The notes: generated from the sequence alone by a model not told the origin. DNA of 64,000 nucleotides from Callorhinchus milii (GCF_018977255.1 NW_024704742.1:33606001-33670000); one strand, 5' to 3'. Shown: positions 6,358-60,837, counted from the stretch's first letter. Made by a program: numbers and translations.

Positions 6358-6652
6358 GGAGTCCTGTAGCTTAGTGGTTAGAGCACTCGCCTCGCAAGCG
6401 AGAGACCTAGGTTCGATTCCCGGCAGGATGAAACCTTGGGCAAGTTTCCTTACTCCACATGCCTGTTAATAATCCCTCAAGAAAAAAAAATAGTCACTTC
6501 AATTCACGACTGTTTATGGGACATTGCTGTGCGCAATTGGCTGCTGCATTTCGCCCACAAATATACAGTCAGTTCACTTTACAGCATATTCTCTGAAACG
6601 CTTTGAGACGTGAAAAGCGCTATATCAAATGCAAGGATTATTATTATTACTA
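6358..6652 (+). mobile_element. tRNA(Ala)-derived DeuSINE-like SINE
   Basis: A box TAGCTTAGTGG, B box GGTTCGATTCC, core GCTGTGCGCAATTGGCTGC, tail GCGCTATATCAAATGCAAGG(ATT)n. Confidence 0.85.
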
Positions 6653-13584: not shown

Positions 13585-13737
13585 AACTGGTGTTGCTTTC
13601 CCTTCCCGTACGACGTGCACCGAAAGAAACACAACTCTAAGCCCTCTTAAAAAAAAAAAAAAATTTTTTTACCCCCCAACCCCCCACCCCACCATCCCCC
13701 CCAAAAAAAAACCTTTGCAATATATCGTGGGACCCAC

Positions 13738-13815
13738 CTGGCGAATGCGGTCGGGAGGGTTTGGAGAGGTCCCGCCTCCCTGCGGGGAGGAGGGGGAGGA
13801 GGAGGAAGAAGCCAT
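13738..13815 (-). CDS. ANK2: Ankyrin-2 (ankyrin-B) alternative first coding exon
   Basis: AAG-ATG-G start, 26 codons MASSSSSPSSPQGGGTSPNPPDRIRQ, then a phase-0 donor CAG|GTGGGT. Resembles the mammalian ANK2 N-terminal variant as I recall it (MASPTSP...PQNPPRIRQ). Same strand as and downstream of LARP7, as in mammals. Confidence 0.8.
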
Positions 13816-14700
13816 CTTCTGGAAATCTGCGACTGGTTGTGAAATGCAATCCTCTTGAAGCTGCCCCCGGGGGCTGCTCCCTCACCCCGGGGCCGCCACA
13901 GGGGAGACGCAGGAGAAGGGGGTCCAGGGATTGGCTTCACACGTCCGCTGCTGCCACACTCTGCATTGCTCTCTGCATCTCCTCCCCAACCCTCACTCTC
14001 TCTCTCTCTCTCTGTGTGTCGTGTGTGTGTGTGTGTGTGTAGTGGTAGTGTGTGTCTCTCTGGGTCTGGGTCTCACTGACTGAATGAAACTGGTCTGAAA
14101 GAGAGGAGCTGGGATTGTGTCCTGGGCTGTGGCTCCAGCACTGACCTTGTGTGTGTGTGTGTGTGTGAGTGAGTGAGTGGTGTGTGTGTGTGTGAGTGCT
14201 AATGCGGCACTGAACTGAACTGTCTCCTCTCACTCACTGTGTCTCTCTCTTTCGAGTGCAAGACTGGAGAGAGAGAGAGAGAGAGAGAGACTCTGTGGCT
14301 CGCAGCAGCTCCCAGACTGGAGGAGAGCCCTGGCGTCAGTCCTCAGGCACAGCACAGCTCTCACCCACTCTCTGATGAGATCACGTCCAGTGCAATGCAA
14401 TGAATGCACTCGGCGAACAGCTCCCGAGTCCCATCTCACTGCTGCTCAGAGAGAGAGAGAGAGAGAGACTCACAGCAAAAGGTGGGGCCAGCCATTGCCT
14501 TTCACTTAACATCACCCCTCCACGGGGTCAGATGGCGATCGTTACTTGGAATTATTATTTGCAGCCACGATTCGGACCGATATAACTTGTCCGGTGATTG
14601 CTAATTGCAGCACCACCTCTCTCCCTCTCCCCCTCTCTCTCCCCCCACCATCACCACTACTCCCCTCCCTTCAATACCAGCAACTGCAACGATTTAATCC
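13816..14700 (-). promoter_or_regulatory. ANK2: Probable ANK2 5' UTR and promoter region rich in (CA)n/(GA)n microsatellites
   Basis: GC-elevated region free of the common TEs directly upstream of the ATG. Microsatellites at about 13996-14060, 14147-14195, 14268-14290 and 14448-14468. The TSS cannot be determined. Confidence 0.5.
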
Positions 14701-40997: not shown

Positions 40998-41238
40998 GTT
41001 TTTAAGTGATATCAATAAACACTACAAATAGCCTCAATATTGATGGACTAGGGAGAAGGGGTACAGCAATACAACAATTCTATGTATAACGCCAGATTTT
41101 TTGTAAGAAGTTCTATTCCTTAATTATAATAGAGTGGTTTGGAAAAAAACTTCTCATGGTCCAGACATACTGACATCCTCTCATACAACTTAAACCTTTG
41201 TTCACACTACAACAAATAGGATTTTGATATTTGCTGAC

Positions 41239-41398
41239 CTGTGAGAAGCTCAAGTTTCCAGTGGTACTTGTCCTGAATCTGCCGGTGTGCAGCAAGCAGA
41301 GTCTGAGCATCTTCTGGACATTTGAACCGAACATGTCCTTCAGTATCTCCCTCCAGCAGGTCCACATACAAAACCTCTGATATCTCCATCAATGCGTC
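41239..41398 (-). CDS. LARP7: LARP7 exon (xRRM)
   Basis: AAG|...CAG|GTCAGC, 160 nt, [53 protein letters not shown]. Confidence 0.95.
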
Positions 41399-41803
41399 CT
41401 TCACAAAGAAAGTTAGTTTATTATAAAATGGAAAAGTGTTTCATTTCCCAGCGAAACACACTGAAAACAAAACCTAGAATGTTAACTGATGTTTCCTCCT
41501 ATGGTACACTGGCGTAAAAGAAAATTGTAACAATATCAATAATTATTTTTACAAAACTGTACCAGGAAGAGTGGCTGAGGCCAGGACATCGGACTCATTT
41601 CAGAAAAAGTATAGTGCTGTAATAGAAGGGTGGTATGCTGAGTATTCTGGAAGAATGAGATTAAATAGGTGTTTTCTTCTTCCAAACCTCGCATGTGATC
41701 CCTGTAATACCTTATTTGTAATGAATTTTCCATACAAAAAGCTCGACACCTTCCAAGGTAAGGGGGTTCGCTTGATTTGAAGGTGAGGACGAGGATCTTA
41801 AAG

Positions 41804-42129: not shown

Positions 42130-42404
42130 ACAGATTGTTTGAGGGATAGAAAGCCAAGGGTGCTGGGCAAGGTTGGGGAATTGTTGGATCATGGAACCAA
42201 GTGGGGGAGAGGAAGTGGGCTGCATCGTTCTGGCTGTTGGTTGTTCTGTCACATTGAGTTTGGAGATGACAAAGGTGTGGATGAAGATTATAATAGGTTT
42301 CTGCTGTGTTAGGGTCCTCGTAATAATAATAATCCTTGCATTTGATGTAGCGCCTTATCACATCTTCCAGACGTCTCAAAGAGCTTCACAGAATATACTG
42401 GAAA

Positions 42405-42968
42405 GTGAAAATGTTCCCCAAAATCAGGCCATCCCTGGAGCTAGATATCACTGATTTGCTTTCAAACACCCTGAGACATTGTTTCATTTGTGGAGGAATA
42501 GCAGAATATGAATGTGATCAATGCCTTCTGGACCCTATTTTTAAACGAGGACTAATAAAACGGTACTGCGACATTTGCAATATGCAGGTTCATTCTCACA
42601 TGAAGCGGAAGGAGCACCAGATCAGAAAGTTCCCAAGTCCAAATAACTTCTCGGTCAAACCTCCTTTTCCACGACATAAGATGGAACTGTTTGCAGTACT
42701 TTGCATCGAAACCAGCCACTATGTTTCATTTGTGAAATATGGGCCAGGGAAACGATCGGGGGTTTTCTTTGACAGCATGGCCAACCGAATTGATAATGAG
42801 AATATTCCAGAAATAACAGATTGTCCACAAGAGGGTGATTATTTAATGATACCAGAGGACGAGCTGCTTCATACAGACCTAAAGCAGCTTGATGGATTGG
42901 CCAAAAGACACTTCTGCGATGCCTATATGTGCATGTATCAGAGCCCCAAGATGTGCTTGTATAACTAA
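42405..42968 (+). pseudogene. CYLD: 5'-truncated intronless retrocopy of a CYLD-like deubiquitinase (C-terminal USP domain with B-box)
   Basis: Open 187-codon frame with PSLELDITDLL, CxxC zinc ligands, MELFAVLCIETSHYVSFVKYG, FFDSMA and CDAYMCMYQSP. It is contiguous over a region that is multi-exonic in CYLD, lacks the catalytic Cys box, and its 5' end abuts a SINE tail. Probably derived from a CYLD-like paralogue. Confidence 0.85.
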
Positions 42969-46838: not shown

Positions 46839-47079
46839 AAAAATAATAATCCTTGCATTTGATATGGCGCTTTTCACGTCTTCTAAATGTCTCAAAACGC
46901 TTCACGAATATACTGTAAAGTGAATTGACTATATTTGTGGTGAAATGCGACAGCCAATTGCACACAGCAGTGTCCTACCAGAGTAAGGCAACTTGCCCAA
47001 GGTCTTGCCCTGCTGGGAATCAAACCCAGGTCTTTCGCTTACCAGGCGAGCGCTCTAACCACTGAGCTACAGGACTCCA
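46839..47079 (-). mobile_element. tRNA-derived SINE with internal deletion
   Basis: Head and tail present; middle shortened. Confidence 0.75.
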
Positions 47080-54031: not shown

Positions 54032-54923
54032 ACAGCCAGAGAGCCAGCAATGCTCTTACTGTTGCAATCCTGGCACAAACCAGGCAGAAAGATGTCCTCT
54101 CTAGGAAACCTGCTGTTCTGCACAAATATTTGTCCGCAGTCCACAGCCATTTTAACCCAAGCCAAGTCTCATGTTGTGCAGACTCAAAGCAAACGGACTT
54201 TAATGAAGTAAGGAGTGTTGATGATCACAGTAAATGACCTAACACTATTCACAAAAGATTGGTCTGAAGCTGCAAATGAAATATAAAATGGGACTAAAAT
54301 GCACTCTGTGCAGCTCAGCAAAAAATTTATGTTCTCGAATTGTAATAATAATTTGATGTAGCACCTTTCACCTCAGGACGACATCTCAAAGCTCTTTGTT
54401 CAACAATTTCTCTCAGATGGCAAGGGGATAATCAGTAACTCACCACATGAAAAAGCATCCCATTGTTCTTTGGCACAATGCATGTACTGTTGCAAATACA
54501 CATTGGAAAATCAGGTTTCTCATGAGATAAAGTGCTTGTTGGATAGGTTCCTCCATGGCTCCGTGAGTTTATTTAGCGAGTAGTTGACCTGCACAGAATG
54601 TGGAAGGTTCCAGGGTGCTACAATTCAAAAAAAATCAGCTAGACTATACATACACTGTTCGTTATCTAGTAACCCCTGCTGAGGGCAAGGATCAACCTTG
54701 GTTGGGACCCCCACTCCTGCTTTCATCAAAACACATACAAATATACATGGTCAAGCTCACATCTTGGGCAAGATAATGGAGCGTATTGATGGAATCAACC
54801 GTGGTAGTTGGGAGCGGTTTGTCAAATGCCTTCATGAGAGAGGTACAGAAAAAAAAGAGGAAAAAGAAATGGTTGCGAACAGTTTGGGTAAAACTCACAG
54901 GGGATGGATTCAAAGATACTGAC

Positions 54924-55078
54924 CTTTACCATTTTCAAGTTCCTGTTTGACTTTGTCTGTCACCTCCATTGTTTCACCCTCATTTTGCTGTTTGATTTGT
55001 AACATTGTTTTCTTGAGATTGGACATGCTGGCCTTCTGTAGTTTTAAGTATTCCTGCTTCAAATCTATCCACTCTTTC
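54924..55078 (-). CDS. LARP7: LARP7 exon
   Basis: CACAG|...AAAG|GTCAGT, 155 nt, [29 protein letters not shown]... (human [29 protein letters not shown]). An in-frame alternative donor lies 6 nt earlier. Confidence 0.93.
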
Positions 55079-55729
55079 CTGTGAAAAAAATACATAAAAA
55101 GGATTATTCGTATCATCACAAAAAATATCTATAATTCTATGTTGTGGTGTCAATAGATTGGCAGGAATTTTCAATTCTTCTGTGAAGTTTCTTCCCGTAC
55201 ACTTTTTCCCCCTGAAACGATGGTGGGATGTGGGAGAGTCAAAGGCCTTCAAGGAAGATATGGAAAAATTGGCACAAAGTATAACAAGATTAGAGCTTGT
55301 GAACACTTCACCCTGTGTTGGACTTTTCGACACTCCAGTGTAGTGATGTAATACAAAATTAGATTCATCTTTTTGTTCCACACCACAATGTGCTTAACAC
55401 CTGTACAATATATATAAATGCAGGTTGTTGTTATTGCATTTAACGCTAACATGTGCAACTGAGAAGTTCAGACAGGATCATCCTCGAGTCATTTTAAAGC
55501 AGAGCATTTTCTACTGTTTTAGTTTCAGAATACAGCATTCCACACCAATAAACATTTTATCCAAAGTACACGAAACAACGATTTGTCAAATAATGGATTG
55601 CAACCGAGGAGTTTCTCTCTGAAACGTTTCAAACTAACGGTTTCTGGGAGGAAGCCAGTTTGCAAGTGAATTTTCACCCTTGAAAAACAGTTTAATAGTT
55701 AACTGGAAATGTTCAGAATAATAGCTAAC

Positions 55730-55993
55730 TGTGCCACATTGTCTACAAAAAATTGTGTGTTAATGTATCATTGTGCAGACTATCTAATGCCATTGAACAA
55801 AAGCAGGAATTGAGAAAGGCCCTGGGTCTTCTTGTGATGGCTCTAAGTTCTGCCATTTACAGCTTGTTAACATGCTAGCACCACCCATTGAGGCAAACAG
55901 ATTTAGATACACCAACTAGACAATGGAAATGCAAATGACCGTCCCCTTAAGAAAAGGTGCCTAATTAAAATCAGAGGATGAAAGATATATAAA
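55730..55993 (+). promoter_or_regulatory. Putative promoter of the miRNA cluster: Sox motifs, octamer and TATA box
   Basis: ACAATGG at 55920-55926 next to a perfect ATGCAAAT at 55929-55936, several CATTGT/CATTGA/AACAAAAG motifs at 55735-55895, and TATATAAA at 55986-55993, about 220 bp upstream of the first hairpin. Confidence 0.6.
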
Positions 55994-56211
55994 TATCAGT
56001 GACTGAGAAGTCACAGGGAACAGTAGCCTCGAAGACCAGATGGATCGACAAGGATGACGTAAGTGCAAGCATGTAGCAAGCGTTACTTGTATTTTTAGGT
56101 TGTGTGTTTACCTTGGGGTTTATACAGTTGGGAGTTTGTAACTGTGATCCATGGAACCAGAGTTTGGATTTCATCATTAACTAGAAGGAGCAAAATCTTT
56201 TTGTGTGTCGC

Positions 56212-56278
56212 CTGCTACGTCAACATAGAAGCCTTTCTGTGATATAATTGAGTAAGTGCTTTTATGTTGAAGTGGCAG
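56212..56278 (+). ncRNA. MIR302: miR-302-family pre-miRNA copy 1 (3p UAAGUGCUUUUAUGUUGAAGUGG from 56253)
   Basis: The 5' arm CTGCTACGTCAACATAGAAGCCTTTCT pairs with the 3' arm. Seed AAGUGCU; both arms resemble tetrapod miR-302. Confidence 0.9.
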
Positions 56279-56744
56279 TGGGTGCTTGATTCTTCATTTT
56301 AAAACCTTCGCTAGTGCCAACATGTGTTTCTTGTCTTGTTATTTTTCCACAAATTCTTGGGGGAAACTTTTAGCAAGCAAATGCCCTTGTGTATTTATTT
56401 CAGTGCTTTTCTTAAAGTAACATTAACATGGTGCTTAAAATTTCAGGTTTACGCCAATGCAGAAAAGGAGAAAAAAAGGATGTACTAAAAGTTGGACCAC
56501 CGTTTTAGCCAGGCATTTCTGTTAAGCGAAATTTCAGCAAGTGTTTTATTTTATGCGATGCTGTGTTTCTATATTCTGCAATTTTAATTTTGAGGTATTT
56601 AATTCTAACTTGGATGCTTTTCCAAGTGGGGTGACTGCTTGGAAACCCAATGTGGAGTTAGAAGCAACAAGTAGATTGCTTATTCTGCTACATATATACT
56701 TTAAGAGCAAAAATATGAATTGTTCTTTCACCATAGCACCTATG

Positions 56745-56815
56745 GTGTACCACCACTGCGATCGTGCAATGCTGTTTCTCTGTTCTGGTATTGCACTTCA
56801 GCAATGGTGATGCAC
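56745..56815 (+). ncRNA. MIR367: miR-367 pre-miRNA (3p UAUUGCACUUCAGCAAUGGUGA, 56789-56810)
   Basis: Two differences from human AAUUGCACUUUAGCAAUGGUGA; the 5' arm CACCACTGCGATCGTGCAATGC is complementary. Confidence 0.92.
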
Positions 56816-56942
56816 TGTACAGTACCTTCATTCTCCAATGCAACACTGGTGTGTCATTTTGTGAAAAATAATCTGGATTGTTGGTAAAGGAAATTGTACT
56901 ATTTTCTCTGCTCCCTTTTTCCCTCCCAAACCTTAAAAAGCC

Positions 56943-57002
56943 ACCTTTTACAACGTTATTGATGGCAAGTGGCTAGTTGCCATCAATAACGTTGTAAAAG
57001 GT
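56943..57002. repeat. Perfect 26-bp inverted repeat with 8-nt loop
   Basis: ACCTTTTACAACGTTATTGATGGCAA-GTGGCTAG-TTGCCATCAATAACGTTGTAAAAGGT. Confidence 0.95.
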
Positions 57003-57230
57003 ACATGAGCATGTATAGAATACTGGAATTTTGCATGTAATATAATTTCTTCTAAATGTTCTCTTATTTTAATGAGCTTTCCAACCTTACTGCCTTGTTA
57101 CGTATCGATACAGCAGTTTTAATGAGAATGTTTTTCACTGTAAATTTGAGAGCCTATTGATCTGGATGGTTTTAGTATGATGCATTTAACCAAAAGGTGT
57201 GATGGCCATAATGCAAAATTCAGTGCTGTT

Positions 57231-57299
57231 ACTAGTTACTCTCAACAAATGAGACTTGCTGTTGAGTCACGTAAGTACTCGTATGTTCGGTTCTCTAGT
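57231..57299 (+). ncRNA. miR-302/430-family pre-miRNA copy 2, seed variant (3p UAAGUACUCGUAUGUUCGGUUC from 57272)
   Basis: AACAAATGAGACTTGC pairs with GTAAGTACTCGTATGTT; basal pairing ACTAG/CTAGT. Confidence 0.7.
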
Positions 57300-57348
57300 T
57301 TACAGGTTTGGTATGCACACCCAAGAAATGTTTTGAATTTGTGTTCTC

Positions 57349-57415
57349 CAGCTCGCCTAACAGTAAAGCCTTCCTTTATAAGGATCTAGTAAGTGCTTTT
57401 CTGTTAGGGAAACTG
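57349..57415 (+). ncRNA. miR-302/430-family pre-miRNA copy 3 (3p UAAGUGCUUUUCUGUUAGGGAA from 57390)
   Basis: CCTAACAGTAAAGCCTTCCT pairs with AGTAAGTGCTTTTCTGTTAGG. Confidence 0.85.
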
Positions 57416-57781
57416 TAGAATGCATTCTCATCCTGGGAAGCCTTTTCAAGTGTGTACAATACTCGGCAAGTTTAGCTTTTATTTTCTTAAAATCCTTTCG
57501 TAAGATGCAAGCGCTGTCCTGGTAAATTAGCCAAAGCACAATGCTCGGTTCAATGTTGGTGCTAATTTTAAACTCAATTCTGAGGTGGGATGCTTTCTGT
57601 TTATTCTCTGTAAATAATACTGACCTTTTATGTGTCTTTTCAGACGTTGACATTACTGGTGTTCCTACTGTGCAGATTTACTTCACGCAGAACCTGGTGT
57701 GTTCTGTGCACCTTTATACGAATTCCAGTATACAACTCTACTACAATTCTTCCTCAATTTTAACGTCAATGACCTGTGACC

Positions 57782-57851
57782 TAGTGATCCCGATATGCAA
57801 GTACTTGCTGTATCCAAGATGAAGTAAGTGCTTATCATATTGGGATTTCTA
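57782..57851 (+). ncRNA. miR-302/430-family pre-miRNA copy 4 (3p UAAGUGCUUAUCAUAUUGGGAUU from 57825)
   Basis: GATCCCGATATGCAAGTACTTGCT pairs with AGTAAGTGCTTATCATATTGGGATT. Confidence 0.88.
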
Positions 57852-57921
57852 TTGTAGAACAAATGACCCATTGGTAATTCAGAAAAATCCTGGATCGTGT
57901 TGCCGGATGTTTTGAGCTGTG

Positions 57922-57992
57922 CCAAGAGCTCCCAACATGCTAGCACATGCTGTGTATTGCTCTAGTAAGTGCTTTTATGTTGGGATTTCTGG
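57922..57992 (+). ncRNA. miR-302/430-family pre-miRNA copy 5 (3p UAAGUGCUUUUAUGUUGGGAUU from 57966)
   Basis: TCCCAACATGCTAGCACATGCT pairs with AGTAAGTGCTTTTATGTTGGGA. Confidence 0.88.
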
Positions 57993-58041
57993 AGTCAGAT
58001 GAACTTATTGTGCACCATAAAACGCCGTTTTGTCACGTCCT

Positions 58042-58118
58042 GTGTTTTAGAGCCTCTAACATGTGAGTTCTTGCAACCTTACTAAGTAAGTGCTCCCATG
58101 TTGGGATTTCTAGAGCAT
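58042..58118 (+). ncRNA. miR-302/430-family pre-miRNA copy 6 (3p UAAGUGCUCCCAUGUUGGGAUU from 58087)
   Basis: GTGTTTTAGAG..CTCTAACATGTGAGTTCTTGC pairs with GTAAGTGCTCCCATGTTGGGA..TTCTAGAGCAT. Confidence 0.85.
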
Positions 58119-58370
58119 AGACAAATTGTAAAACTTCTTCCCAACAGAATTTGTAAACTTGTACCTGGTTTGCTTCTTAAGCACTAAAACCTTGTTATTT
58201 AATGCTTTTTGCAATAAAATGTTCTTGTGCTCCAATATAGTTTCTAAATAAAGTCTTAATGCTGCAGAGCCTCTTGTGAAAACTTGCTGCTCTCAGGATT
58301 TCTCCTCTCAGGATTTCTACAGAAGAATCTACAGATGTACAAAGAATTTCATCTTAGGAGCAGCAATAGT

Positions 58371-58448
58371 GTAATTTGGAAGCACCAAGATGGAAGGCTT
58401 GCTGTTTTTATCTTCCAGTAAGTGCTTCATATTGGTGTTCTTAAATGC
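58371..58448 (+). ncRNA. miR-302/430-family pre-miRNA copy 7 (3p UAAGUGCUUCAUAUUGGUGUUC from 58419)
   Basis: AGCACCAAGATGGAAGGCTTGCTG pairs with CAGTAAGTGCTTCATATTGGTGTT. Confidence 0.85.
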
Positions 58449-58545
58449 ACAAATAAGAAGTTATTGGCAAGAAGCCAATCTTTTCATTCTTGTCCTGTAA
58501 ACTGATGATGGAAAGCTGTTGCTTTGTTTCTTGTCGGATTTTAAA

Positions 58546-58551
58546 AATAAA
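58546..58551 (+). terminator. Candidate poly(A) signal for the miRNA host transcript
   Basis: AATAAA about 100 nt after the last hairpin, followed by the T/GT-rich tract TTTTGTTTTTACTTGT. Other AATAAA at 58213 and 58247. Confidence 0.4.
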
Positions 58552-59149
58552 TGGATTTACAACTACGATTTTGTTTTTACTTGTCCACTTTTCACATCAG
58601 ACACTTTTAAAACTTCCCAAGGCGCTTAAATTAGGGAGGTGTTTCAACCCTCTGCAACCAGCAGAGGCCATGCTGTAAATGGGTTCATACTTGTGGTGGG
58701 GTGGAGTGTGTTGGTGGGCGGGGGGGGGGGGAAGGAAAGTGAGGAAGTCAATTGTCCGAAGAGGCCAGGCCTCAGAAGGCACATGCGACAATATTGTCCG
58801 AAGGGAAGGTTCAGCACGAAAAAAGTTTGGGAGCTGCTTGAGCTGCTGGAGGATTGTTAAACCAGGTCTTTTGGATTCTGGTTCGCCATCTTATTTCTAG
58901 TTCTAATTGCACTTCAGCCTTCTACTTCTATGAACTCTTGCATTTTTACTTCTAGACTATATTCTTATAGATCTCGTGGGAGACGTACGGTGAGGTTTAC
59001 TGCCCTGGAAATGATCTGGGGTCTGATAATAAAACACATGTAATCGGTTTTAAAAAATTACACTCACAATTGTTTTGCTGAAATTTTCACATTGCATCCA
59101 AAGCAATAAAAGGATTTACTGTAAAGTGATTCTGGCACAACGTCCCTCC

Positions 59150-59770
59150 GGCCTGCGGGCTGACCACCTAGCTCCCGGTCTCTGCGTGCGCATTGAACCC
59201 TGACCAGAAATGCGCCCTCCCACCCCCGCAGAAATGCTCCCCCTTCTCGGTCCTTCTCTCCCACCACCCTCCTCTCCTGAACCCCATCACTGGCCATCCT
59301 CTGCTCCGGCTTGGCCAATCCTCCACTAGGCCTTGGCACTCACTCTTCTCCCCTAGAGCCAGTTTCCCACTTGCTGACTTTCTCTTCAAAATGTCTTAAA
59401 GCCCTCCTGATCCATGACTCATCCTGAAGGGGAACATGGACATTCTTGGACTCACTGAGATCTGGCTGTCCCCCGGTGATTCTGTCCCTTGATTGAAGCC
59501 CCCACTCTGGATACACCTTTCACTTCCTCAACCTCTGCCCAAACTTCCCCTGGCTCTACTATTCCTCCGGCTCCTTCCCATCTTTTGAACACTTAACCCT
59601 GTACCATTCACCCCCTCTGCTTCAAAATCCTCATTTATTGTCTTCCCAAACCGCCTGGTTTCTTCATCTCTGACATTTTCTCCCTCTGCACTGAACTGAA
59701 CCCCTGATCATAATGGGTGATTTCAACCTTTACCTAAACTCCCCTTGCCCCATTTCCTCTGACTGCCTAT
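59150..59770 (+). mobile_element. Degenerate L2-like fragments (3' end and endonuclease remnant)
   Basis: DILGLTEIWL at about 59440 and GDFN at about 59716 (APE motifs); L2 3'-end-like sequence before that. Confidence 0.55.
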
Positions 59771-60837
59771 GATCACCTCCCCCCTCCCTGATGTTTGCTC
59801 AGCCACTGTCAGTGCTCTGGGACACTACCCTGCATGAGGGGCACTGTAGAGCTGCAAGTTGTTGCTGAAATGATTACCAATTTTTTTGCAGGATACTGGG
59901 AGAAACTCTTTTATGATCGAATAATGCAATGGGATCTTTAACTTCCACAGGCAGACAAGACAGTACCTTGGTTTAACGTCCCGTCCAAAGGATGAACATC
60001 TCTGACAACACAGCACAATGCAGCACCTCACTGGAGTGTCAGCCCAGACTGTATAAATTGAAAGTTCCGACATAGGGCGAGGAGTTCAAAACTACAATCA
60101 TTTTTGTCCTTTCTGTCAATTTCCGACCTTGCAACCTCCCTACCCCCAGCCCTGCATTGTAGTGTCATCTTAGACGATGTGTTCCCATTCAATGAATCCA
60201 TGATCCATGTAAATTCCCGAAATTCACCTTCTCTTCTAGAATTAAAATGAAGATTCAGCTAAACAAGGAACCCAAATTACCTACATCTGAAGGTTTGATT
60301 CTCTTGCCTGTGGGTCCGTTTGATTTACAGGAACTAGCAATGGCTCTGGGGAAAGCAACCATATGTGGTTCACTCAAACATGTTACCATTATCAAACACT
60401 ATAAAAACCCCTGTATTCAGAAATTAAATGAAGATGAATGACATCATAAGCGACACCCAATTGTTCCCCCTACATTGTTCCACCCCGAGGTGGAAACAAT
60501 CGTTTTATTGCCAGTAGATTAACACTGAATTTAGGAGGTTCCCTTTTCAACATTACAGGATAGCTGTAGACTTTACCGTTTCCCAAATAATACTAATTTA
60601 ATTTAGTGCTACAATGGGATATATGAGACCTGTAAAGGTCAAATCTTGATTCCATCAAGTGATACCCTTTCTCCATGGTGAAAAATATGCATGTGGGCAT
60701 CTAATGAAACAAAATTCTCAGGTCGACGATATTCATAGGTGAACAAATGATACATTAAAGCAGTTACCCTGCAGTCTGGGAGGGGTAATTACATTTGACT
60801 AAATTCCCCCCTTAATTGTATGATTAATTTAACTTAC

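What the first reader, a model, noticed from the sequence alone, without database searches (positions are those of the whole stretch)
56745..58448. miR-367 lies second, with six seed-family hairpins downstream of it
Seen: the order is 302-like, 367, then six more family members. Known: in mammals miR-367 is the last hairpin (302b-c-a-d-367). Inference: either amniotes expanded the upstream copy and lost a downstream block, or this lineage expanded independently downstream of 367.
Basis: partly seen in the sequence, partly recalled or inferred. Interest (0 to 1): 0.7.

Follow-up and report, generated by a model that had tools for sequence, protein, structure and literature searches.

The report
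Reordered miR-302/367 cluster in elephant shark
The elephant shark carries the small-RNA gene cluster best known from human embryonic stem cells, in the same host gene but with its parts in a different order and with extra copies; this shows the cluster is older than land vertebrates, and a curated database already records part of it.

Summary
The window is Callorhinchus milii DNA. Antisense in a LARP7 intron lie one miR-302-type hairpin (A), miR-367 and six more homologous hairpins; five have the AAGUGCU seed, one has AAGUACU. An independent contig bridges miR-367 to the fifth downstream copy, so misassembly is unlikely. Two downstream copies were called from small-RNA reads in 2014. The order is not wholly new: MirGeneDB 2.1 lists Mir-430-P1, Mir-92-P2a (inferred = miR-367), P2, P3, P4 in that row order, that is three downstream copies where I find six. 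A is by far the closest to the Rfam mir-302 model (48 bits against 32 or less). The downstream copies are old (50-66% identical, spacers do not align). Best guess: old tandem expansion downstream of a fixed miR-367 in cartilaginous fishes. I could not obtain other vertebrate sequences, so orthology is untested. The scan had noted only this same stretch, no other DNA.

The parts
55078..60836 (-). Host intron of LARP7 (5759 nt); the cluster lies on the opposite strand
   Evidence: Splice joint 55077/60837 with GT..AG ends on the - strand in contigs of 3 of 3 runs guessed to be RNA, absent from the fourth run; flanking exons match C. milii LARP7 P0001
60837..60979 (-). LARP7 exon upstream of the intron (ends at the residue aligned to gorilla LARP7 residue 381)
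54923..55077 (-). LARP7 exon downstream of the intron
55920..55936 (+). Candidate Sox-type site next to a perfect octamer (putative Oct/Sox promoter element; inferred)
   Evidence: Only such composite in the window; the octamer alone is at chance level, 4 found against 5.65 expected
55986..55994 (+). TATA-like box about 220 nt upstream of hairpin A (putative start of the primary transcript; inferred)
   Evidence: motif scan
56212..56278 (+). Hairpin A, miR-302 type, seed AAGUGCU, 3p arm from 56253
   Evidence: Rfam mir-302 48 bits, E 1e-7; z -5.8; basal UG, apical UGU/GUG and CNNC motifs present
56368..56424 (+). r1: possible decayed 302-like copy, inside published conserved element scaffold_50.2267 (window about 56323-56433); weak
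   Evidence: 7.8 bits, E 2.4 with own model; does not fold (z +1.2); for the element
56506..56565 (+). r2: possible decayed A-like copy, inside published conserved element scaffold_50.2266 (window about 56491-56601); weak
   Evidence: best local match to A in the gap, p 0.02-0.07 against shuffles; not found by Rfam or own model
56598..56670 (+). r3: stable hairpin without the family seed; relation to the family not shown
   Evidence: z -3.2, window chosen by eye; no significant likeness to A (545 of 1370 background windows score as high)
56747..56813 (+). miR-367 hairpin (miR-92-type seed AUUGCAC), 3p arm from 56789
   Evidence: Rfam mir-367 33 bits, E 3.5e-4; z -3.8
56943..57002 (.). Perfect 26-bp inverted repeat with an 8-nt loop, unique in the window; function not shown
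   Evidence: (z -11)
57227..57308 (+). Hairpin B, seed variant AAGUACU, 3p arm from 57272
57342..57426 (+). Hairpin C, seed AAGUGCU, 5' arm most like A
   Evidence: (73% over 70 nt to A)
57775..57861 (+). Hairpin D, seed AAGUGCU
   Evidence: Rfam mir-302 32 bits; z -7.6
57917..58001 (+). Hairpin E, seed AAGUGCU; equals miRDeep call scaffold50_18338 of 2014
58041..58123 (+). Hairpin F, seed AAGUGCU
   Evidence: Rfam mir-302 22.4 bits; z -6.5
58370..58455 (+). Hairpin G, seed AAGUGCU; equals miRDeep call scaffold50_18336 of 2014
58546..58551 (+). First AATAAA after hairpin G, followed by a T-rich stretch (candidate polyadenylation signal; inferred). Two more lie before G (58213, 58247)
   Evidence: common hexamer, weak

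Best explanation
This is the elephant shark orthologue of the miR-302/367 cluster. Shown: eight hairpins on one strand, antisense in a LARP7 intron, of which two (E, G) are known to yield small RNAs. Inferred: one polymerase II transcript of about 2.5 kb, from a TATA box near 55990 under an Oct/Sox element to a poly(A) signal near 58546, is cut by Drosha and Dicer into six 3p RNAs with seed AAGUGCU, one with AAGUACU and miR-367; they repress AGCACUU-bearing mRNAs, most likely in the early embryo, and the extra copies raise the dose of one seed rather than add targets (about 0.9 for identity and basic mechanism, about 0.6 for promoter and embryonic role). History (inferred, about 0.5): miR-367 did not move. 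The jawed-vertebrate ancestor had miR-302 upstream of miR-367. An upstream copy was duplicated to the far side of miR-367 long ago in the cartilaginous-fish line and expanded in tandem (C close to A; B, D-G a second group), while further upstream copies may have decayed (r1, r2). The four amniote copies are upstream copies, kept or multiplied separately.
For: Host gene, strand and species. Hairpins and seeds beyond chance. Covariation across the 7 paralogues: 10 of 22 consensus pairs have a change on both sides. Processing: the 2014 miRDeep windows map exactly onto E and G, and their start plus 70 nt falls on the predicted 3p first base in 2 of 2 (the 70-nt excision rule is recalled). A is the most miR-302-like and stands upstream of miR-367, and Xenopus tropicalis has just one miR-302 plus miR-367 in the LARP7 intron (PMC4703056; that text does not give their order). 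A groups with C apart from B, D-G in 5 of 6 trees (94%), so duplication crossed miR-367. The only 2 published shark-bony-vertebrate conserved elements in this intron lie between A and miR-367; none is listed in the downstream block. Promoter logic in mammals (Oct3/4, Sox2, TATA, poly(A)): PMC4703056.
Against: No other vertebrate sequence was obtained, so lineage-specific origin of the downstream block is untested. The copies are deeply diverged (44-66% identity, no alignable spacers), which fits an origin before the bony/cartilaginous split as well. The catshark Scyliorhinus torazame also has Mir-430-P1 to P4 and Mir-92-P2a (order not given), and MirGeneDB counts four copies in the jawed-vertebrate ancestor, coelacanth and human. 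Tree support for the A+C split ranges from 54 to 97% and one of 6 trees lacks it. r1 and r2 are not found by Rfam or by my own covariance model, and their p of 0.01-0.08 is after the fact, in 1 of 6 gaps tested. Annotated miRNAs may have been filtered from the conserved-element table (its methods were not seen), so absence downstream is weak. The Rfam model is built on the amniote copies together, so it cannot assign single orthologues. Differences between individuals are not significantly depleted in the arms (1 of 24 against 2.7 expected, P 0.23).
Confidence: 0.55

Rival explanations
1. Ancestral two-sided cluster: the jawed-vertebrate ancestor already had copies on both sides of miR-367; tetrapods deleted the downstream block, the chimaera let upstream copies decay.
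For: Deep divergence of B-G with no spacer homology in a slowly evolving genome (rate recalled); catshark has at least four family members plus Mir-92-P2a; conserved elements and weak remnants between A and miR-367.
Against: Downstream copies score 15-32 bits against 48 for A; no published conserved element in the downstream block; no report of downstream copies in tetrapods in the papers read.
Confidence: 0.22
2. Simple relocation: A equals the first amniote copy and three of the downstream copies equal the other three; only miR-367 changed place. This is what MirGeneDB's names P1-P4 suggest.
For: MirGeneDB 2.1 gives C. milii and human the same names P1-P4. The window's hairpins fall into two 5'-arm types (CTTTCT/CTTCCT in A and C; C(T/A)TGC in B, D-G); I recall, without a check, that the first human copy differs from the other three at the same position.
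Against: The paralogue numbers are positional, P1 being 5' of P2 (PMC8789304, passage), not the result of a tree. There are six downstream copies, not three. The 468-nt gap between A and miR-367 is conserved with bony vertebrates and holds weak 302-like traces where the amniote copies would lie. The arm type rests on one base.
Confidence: 0.17
3. The second hairpin is an independent miR-92-family insertion and the cluster is convergent with the tetrapod one.
For: Rfam score below the gathering cut-off (33 against 54) and a first base of miR-92 type; reviews infer a tetrapod origin and absence in coelacanth and ray-finned fish.
Against: 20 of 22 letters of the 3' arm match the mir-367 consensus, in the same host gene, on the antisense strand, downstream of a miR-302 hairpin; MirGeneDB treats Mir-92-P2a as shared by C. 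milii and human and lost in coelacanth and ray-finned fish.
Confidence: 0.04
4. Assembly artefact or chance hairpins.
For: None found. In run X1 hairpins A and G are joined to the main contig by overlaps shorter than 31 letters.
Against: One contig of run X1 covers 56259-58336 in order with 13 other letters and 1 gap; contigs of X6 (56207-56388) and X5 (58178-58673) cross the two weak joins. Intron length and E-G spacing agree with the 2014 tables (5753 against 5759; 454 against 453). Copies are too diverged to be false duplicates.
Confidence: 0.01

Closest known systems
Tetrapod miR-302/367 cluster (human miR-302b, c, a, d, 367; MirGeneDB Mir-430-P1-P4 with Mir-92-P2a, the latter equation inferred)
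   Same: Antisense in a LARP7 intron; AAGUGCU seed at positions 2-8 of 3p arms; one miR-367; TATA, Oct/Sox-like and poly(A) motifs around it.
   Different: miR-367 second instead of last; seven 302-type hairpins instead of four (one in Xenopus per PMC4703056); copies only 44-66% identical; one seed variant; a perfect palindrome and possible decayed copies inside the cluster.
MirGeneDB 2.1 annotation of C. milii (Cmi-Mir-430-P1, Cmi-Mir-92-P2a, Cmi-Mir-430-P2, P3, P4)
   Same: Consecutive rows P4, P3, P2, Mir-92-P2a, P1 in a sheet that follows genomic order for other clusters: most likely this locus, with miR-367 second. Coordinates were not shown, so the match is inferred.
   Different: Three downstream genes listed, six found here; which three is unknown; no mention of order, remnants or history in the texts read.
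miR-430 (fish) and miR-427 (Xenopus) tandem arrays
   Same: Same AAGUGCU seed, 3p arm, same family in MirGeneDB.
   Different: Those are high-copy repeats of a unit, over 6 kb; here single diverged copies with unrelated spacers. C. milii is reported to have such an array as well (PMC10417697, passages), and Cmi-Mir-430-o36 is listed apart.
miR-290-295 / miR-371-373
   Same: Seed family; E and G were labelled 'mir-290' in 2014.
   Different: That cluster lies next to NLRP12 in mammals; this one lies in LARP7. The 2014 label reflects the seed only.

Membership tests
miR-302/367 cluster | Antisense within an intron of LARP7 | tested here: met
miR-302/367 cluster | The very same intron as in mammals | tested here: inconclusive
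   Exon end aligns with gorilla LARP7 residue 381; that the mammalian cluster lies in this intron is recalled, the papers read say only 'an intron'
miR-302/367 cluster | Hairpins with AAGUGCU at positions 2-8 of the 3p arm | tested here: met
   6 of 7 (A, C-G); B has AAGUACU
miR-302/367 cluster | A linked miR-367 hairpin | tested here: met
   Rfam mir-367 E 3.5e-4, 20 of 22 3'-arm letters
miR-302/367 cluster | Own Pol II unit with Oct4/Sox2 sites, TATA box and poly(A) signal | tested here: inconclusive
   Motifs present at fitting places but the octamer is at chance frequency; no transcript ends seen
miR-302/367 cluster | Expression in epiblast or pluripotent cells | not testable with these tools
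   Only contigs were available
miR-302/367 cluster, amniote form (a description of one lineage, not a family-defining trait) | Four miR-302 followed by miR-367 last | tested here: not met
   Order 1 + 367 + 6; Xenopus also departs from four
Rfam RF00668 mir-302 and RF00735 mir-367 as curated sets | Score at or above the gathering cut-off (55; 54) | tested here: not met
   Best 48 and 33 bits; divergent homologues, not formal Rfam hits
bona fide miRNA genes | Read stacks showing Drosha/Dicer processing | tested here: inconclusive
   Published miRDeep calls map to 2 of 8 hairpins (E, G); the reads themselves were not seen; MirGeneDB lists 5 genes that probably belong here
miR-430/miR-427 tandem array | Many near-identical repeat units including spacers | tested here: not met
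   44-66% identity, no spacer matches in the self-comparison
miR-290-295/371-373 | Located next to NLRP12, mammals | tested here: not met
   LARP7 intron of a cartilaginous fish

The most novel reading that the evidence does not exclude
The cluster, with its Oct/Sox promoter, predates the split of cartilaginous and bony fishes and once had miR-302 copies on both sides of a fixed miR-367. The two lineages kept opposite halves: amniotes the upstream set, which survives in the chimaera only as hairpin A and decayed traces, and the chimaera a six-hairpin downstream set that tetrapods deleted. The perfect palindrome and r3 would be newly born hairpins in the same transcript.
Probability: 0.2. Interest if true: 0.6.

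Novelty: new variant of a known kind. Interest (0 to 1): 0.38.

Why it matters
Two reviews state that miR-302/367 arose in tetrapods (PMC4703056, PMC7564603). This locus shows that it existed before cartilaginous and bony fishes split, and so was lost in ray-finned fishes; MirGeneDB's tables already imply this, but I found no text that says it. The eight-member layout questions the one-to-one names P1-P4 between shark and human and the view that ancient vertebrate miRNAs rarely duplicate in tandem (PMC8789304). It makes the history testable with existing shark, lungfish and amphibian genomes. It is a matter of evolutionary bookkeeping for a well-known family, not a new mechanism.

Tried and rejected
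No whole genome is held for this window, so other family loci in this species could not be searched. A scan for the miR-367 3' arm gave 1 locus in metagenome contigs and 0 in viral contigs; the one locus, L001, has no hairpin, no LARP7 exon and no miR-302 seed and looks like plant retroelement DNA: chance, rejected. Search of earlier findings by sequence: 0 windows. Sequencing runs: no RNA holder listed on record; low patchy intronic cover in two runs guessed to be RNA cannot show strand and fits LARP7 pre-mRNA: not used as evidence of expression. One such contig ends at 56058, just before a GTAAGT: one contig, no overhang, not used. Further family copies: own covariance model over the intron and over all 64 kb finds only the 7 training hairpins and their reverse strands; next best 15.5 bits, E 0.27. 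Other near-seed sites (55844, 56060, 56400, 57220, 59809, and a second ATTGCACT at 58906) do not fold. Rfam on the A-367 gap: 3 matches, none a miRNA. Depletion of polymorphism in the arms: not significant (only run X1 differences within 55568-58721 were counted). The supplement of PMC8789304 lists alignment coordinates for Mir-430-P1-P4 but no sequences were found in the held text. The bacterial promoter scan does not apply to a vertebrate and one search was uninformative; both ignored. A search for recalled human coordinates returned one listing only, so the human spacing stays recalled.

Full report
What the DNA is. A 60-residue exon at 41228-41407 (-) is 98% identical to Callorhinchus milii LARP7 and 71-77% to shark and ray LARP7 (Pfam RRM_3). 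Seven exons of that protein map to the - strand from 62783 to 38242, with mismatches only at exon edges. Contigs of 3 runs guessed to be RNA join 55077 to 60837 with canonical ends. The finding thus lies antisense in a 5759-nt LARP7 intron of the elephant shark, a holocephalan.

The observation. On the + strand the 3p arms start at 56253 (A), 56789 (miR-367-like), 57272 (B), 57390 (C), 57825 (D), 57966 (E), 58087 (F) and 58419 (G). A and C-G carry AAGTGCT; B carries AAGTACT. Six of the window's 23 AAGTGCT sites fall here (expected 0.31, P 9e-7), all 6 on the 3' arm of hairpins with z -3.9 to -6.3, against 16 of 17 other sites above -2. In leave-one-out profiles 7 of 7 hairpins, B included, outscore all 1370 background windows. 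The consensus fold has 22 pairs, 10 with compensatory changes. Rfam gives mir-302 scores of 48.0 (A), 32.0 (D), 27.5 (E), 22.4 (F), 16.7 (G), 15.0 (C), none for B, and mir-367 33 bits for the second hairpin with 20 of 22 3'-arm letters matching; none reaches the gathering score. A model built from the seven finds no eighth intact copy in 64 kb.

Assembly. One contig of run X1 covers 56259-58336 in order; contigs of X6 and X5 cross the joins to A and to G. The 2014 genome tables (PMC3964593; passages, supplement searches and part 187 seen, Supplementary Notes not held) give an intron of 5753 nt holding two miRDeep calls labelled mir-290. One offset maps the intron end and both calls onto the window: they are E and G, and start plus 70 nt equals the predicted first base of each 3p arm (excision rule recalled). 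So the order is real and 2 of 8 hairpins are known to be processed.

How it most likely works. Shown: eight same-strand hairpins within 2.25 kb. Inferred from the mammalian cluster (PMC4703056, section 3 parts 1-2; PMC4741278 and PMC9162946, passages): a separate polymerase II transcript antisense to LARP7. A Sox-type site beside a perfect octamer (55920-55936), a TATA-like box (55986) and an AATAAA after G (58546) frame the cluster; the octamer alone is at chance frequency, so this is a fit of position, not proof. Drosha and Dicer would release six RNAs with one seed, one with a variant seed, and miR-367. The likely effect is a high dose of repression on AGCACUU sites in the early embryo. Only A has all three Drosha helper motifs tested; miR-367 and C have two, B, D, E and G one, F none.

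History. The copies are old: 44-66% identical, with no spacer homology. A and C group apart from B and D-G in 5 of 6 trees (support 54-97%), so at least one duplication crossed miR-367. A, the only intact upstream copy, is much the closest to tetrapod miR-302, and Xenopus tropicalis has one miR-302 plus miR-367. [quoted passage not shown] Each contains one of the two best local matches to A in that gap (r1, r2). Against shuffles their summed score has p 0.010, 0.020 and 0.078 under three scoring schemes, the lowest of 6 gaps each time; they no longer fold and neither Rfam nor my model detects them. I rate them as dead copies at about even odds. If real, the ancestor had several upstream copies and 'amniotes expanded the upstream copy' is only partly right. 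My odds: old expansion downstream of a fixed miR-367 in cartilaginous fishes 0.55; two-sided ancestor with loss in tetrapods 0.22; relocation of miR-367 with one-to-one orthologues 0.17; convergence or artefact 0.05. No outgroup sequence could be had, so these odds are soft.

What is known. PMC4703056 and PMC7564603 (passages) infer a tetrapod origin; neither passage reports a cartilaginous fish. MirGeneDB 2.1 (PMC8728216; passages, section 3 part 2, supplement searches and parts 69-70) lists for C. milii the consecutive rows Mir-430-P4, P3, P2, Mir-92-P2a, P1, in a sheet that follows genomic order for other clusters. Read on the minus strand this is '302-like, 367, three more'. That Mir-92-P2a is miR-367 is my inference: it sits amid these rows, human is counted with seven genes for a cluster I recall as having six, and it is scored as lost in coelacanth and ray-finned fish (PMC8789304, supplement parts 4-5), as published for miR-302/367. 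The same tables count four Mir-430 genes in the jawed-vertebrate ancestor, and numbering is by 5'-3' position (preprint 10.1101/2021.09.01.458616, passages). The catshark has the same five names, order not given. PMC10417697 (passages, part 2, tables) treats a tandem miR-430 array of C. milii without miR-302 or 367. Nine topical searches showed no paper on the order in cartilaginous fishes; the library lacks most subscription papers, among them the cluster-evolution paper cited as [44], and MirGeneDB's own pages could not be read, so later releases may list more copies.

Verdict. Real, orthologous to a well-known cluster, and partly on record. New as far as I can see: six downstream copies rather than three, a seed variant, the deep split among copies, possible dead upstream copies, and the explicit conflict with the tetrapod-origin statement. 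New variant of a known kind; interest 0.38.

Noticed in passing
window 42351-42965 (+): An intronless 205-codon open frame matching the C-terminal half of the deubiquitinase CYLD (E 1e-56 to PDB 2vhf), antisense inside another LARP7 intron; probably a retrocopy or an element-borne copy.
   Followed up: partly
window 56943-57002: Perfect 26-bp inverted repeat with 8-nt loop between miR-367 and B, unique in the window, unchanged in run X1, z -11. Possible young hairpin RNA or local inverted duplication; not among the 2014 calls.
   Followed up: partly
window 56059 and the seven 3p arms: All 8 GTAAGT hexamers on the + strand of this intron are the seven 3p-arm starts plus 56059. Each arm begins in a perfect splice-donor consensus; 56059 may be the donor of a short first exon or the relic of a 3p arm (best match to E, p 0.01-0.03).
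   Followed up: partly
window 56598-56670 (+): Stable hairpin r3 just upstream of miR-367 without the family seed (z -3.2).
   Followed up: partly
window 13672-13881 (-): GC-rich region with a short frame resembling an alternative first exon of ankyrin-2, the neighbour of LARP7 in mammals (both recalled; Pfam gives nothing).
   Followed up: no
window, 8 places (e.g. 6360-6431, 47005-47076): The Rfam tRNA matches look like heads of abundant tRNA-derived SINEs with AT-rich tails (repeat families); CR1- and L2-like reading-frame fragments are also frequent (by eye).
   Followed up: no
window 56251-56518 (+): Weak Rfam match to MESTIT1_2 (E 0.17) over the A-367 gap; taken as chance.
   Followed up: no
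L001 3204-3224: Exact match to the miR-367 3'-arm pattern in retroelement-like, apparently plant DNA without a hairpin; chance.
   Followed up: yes
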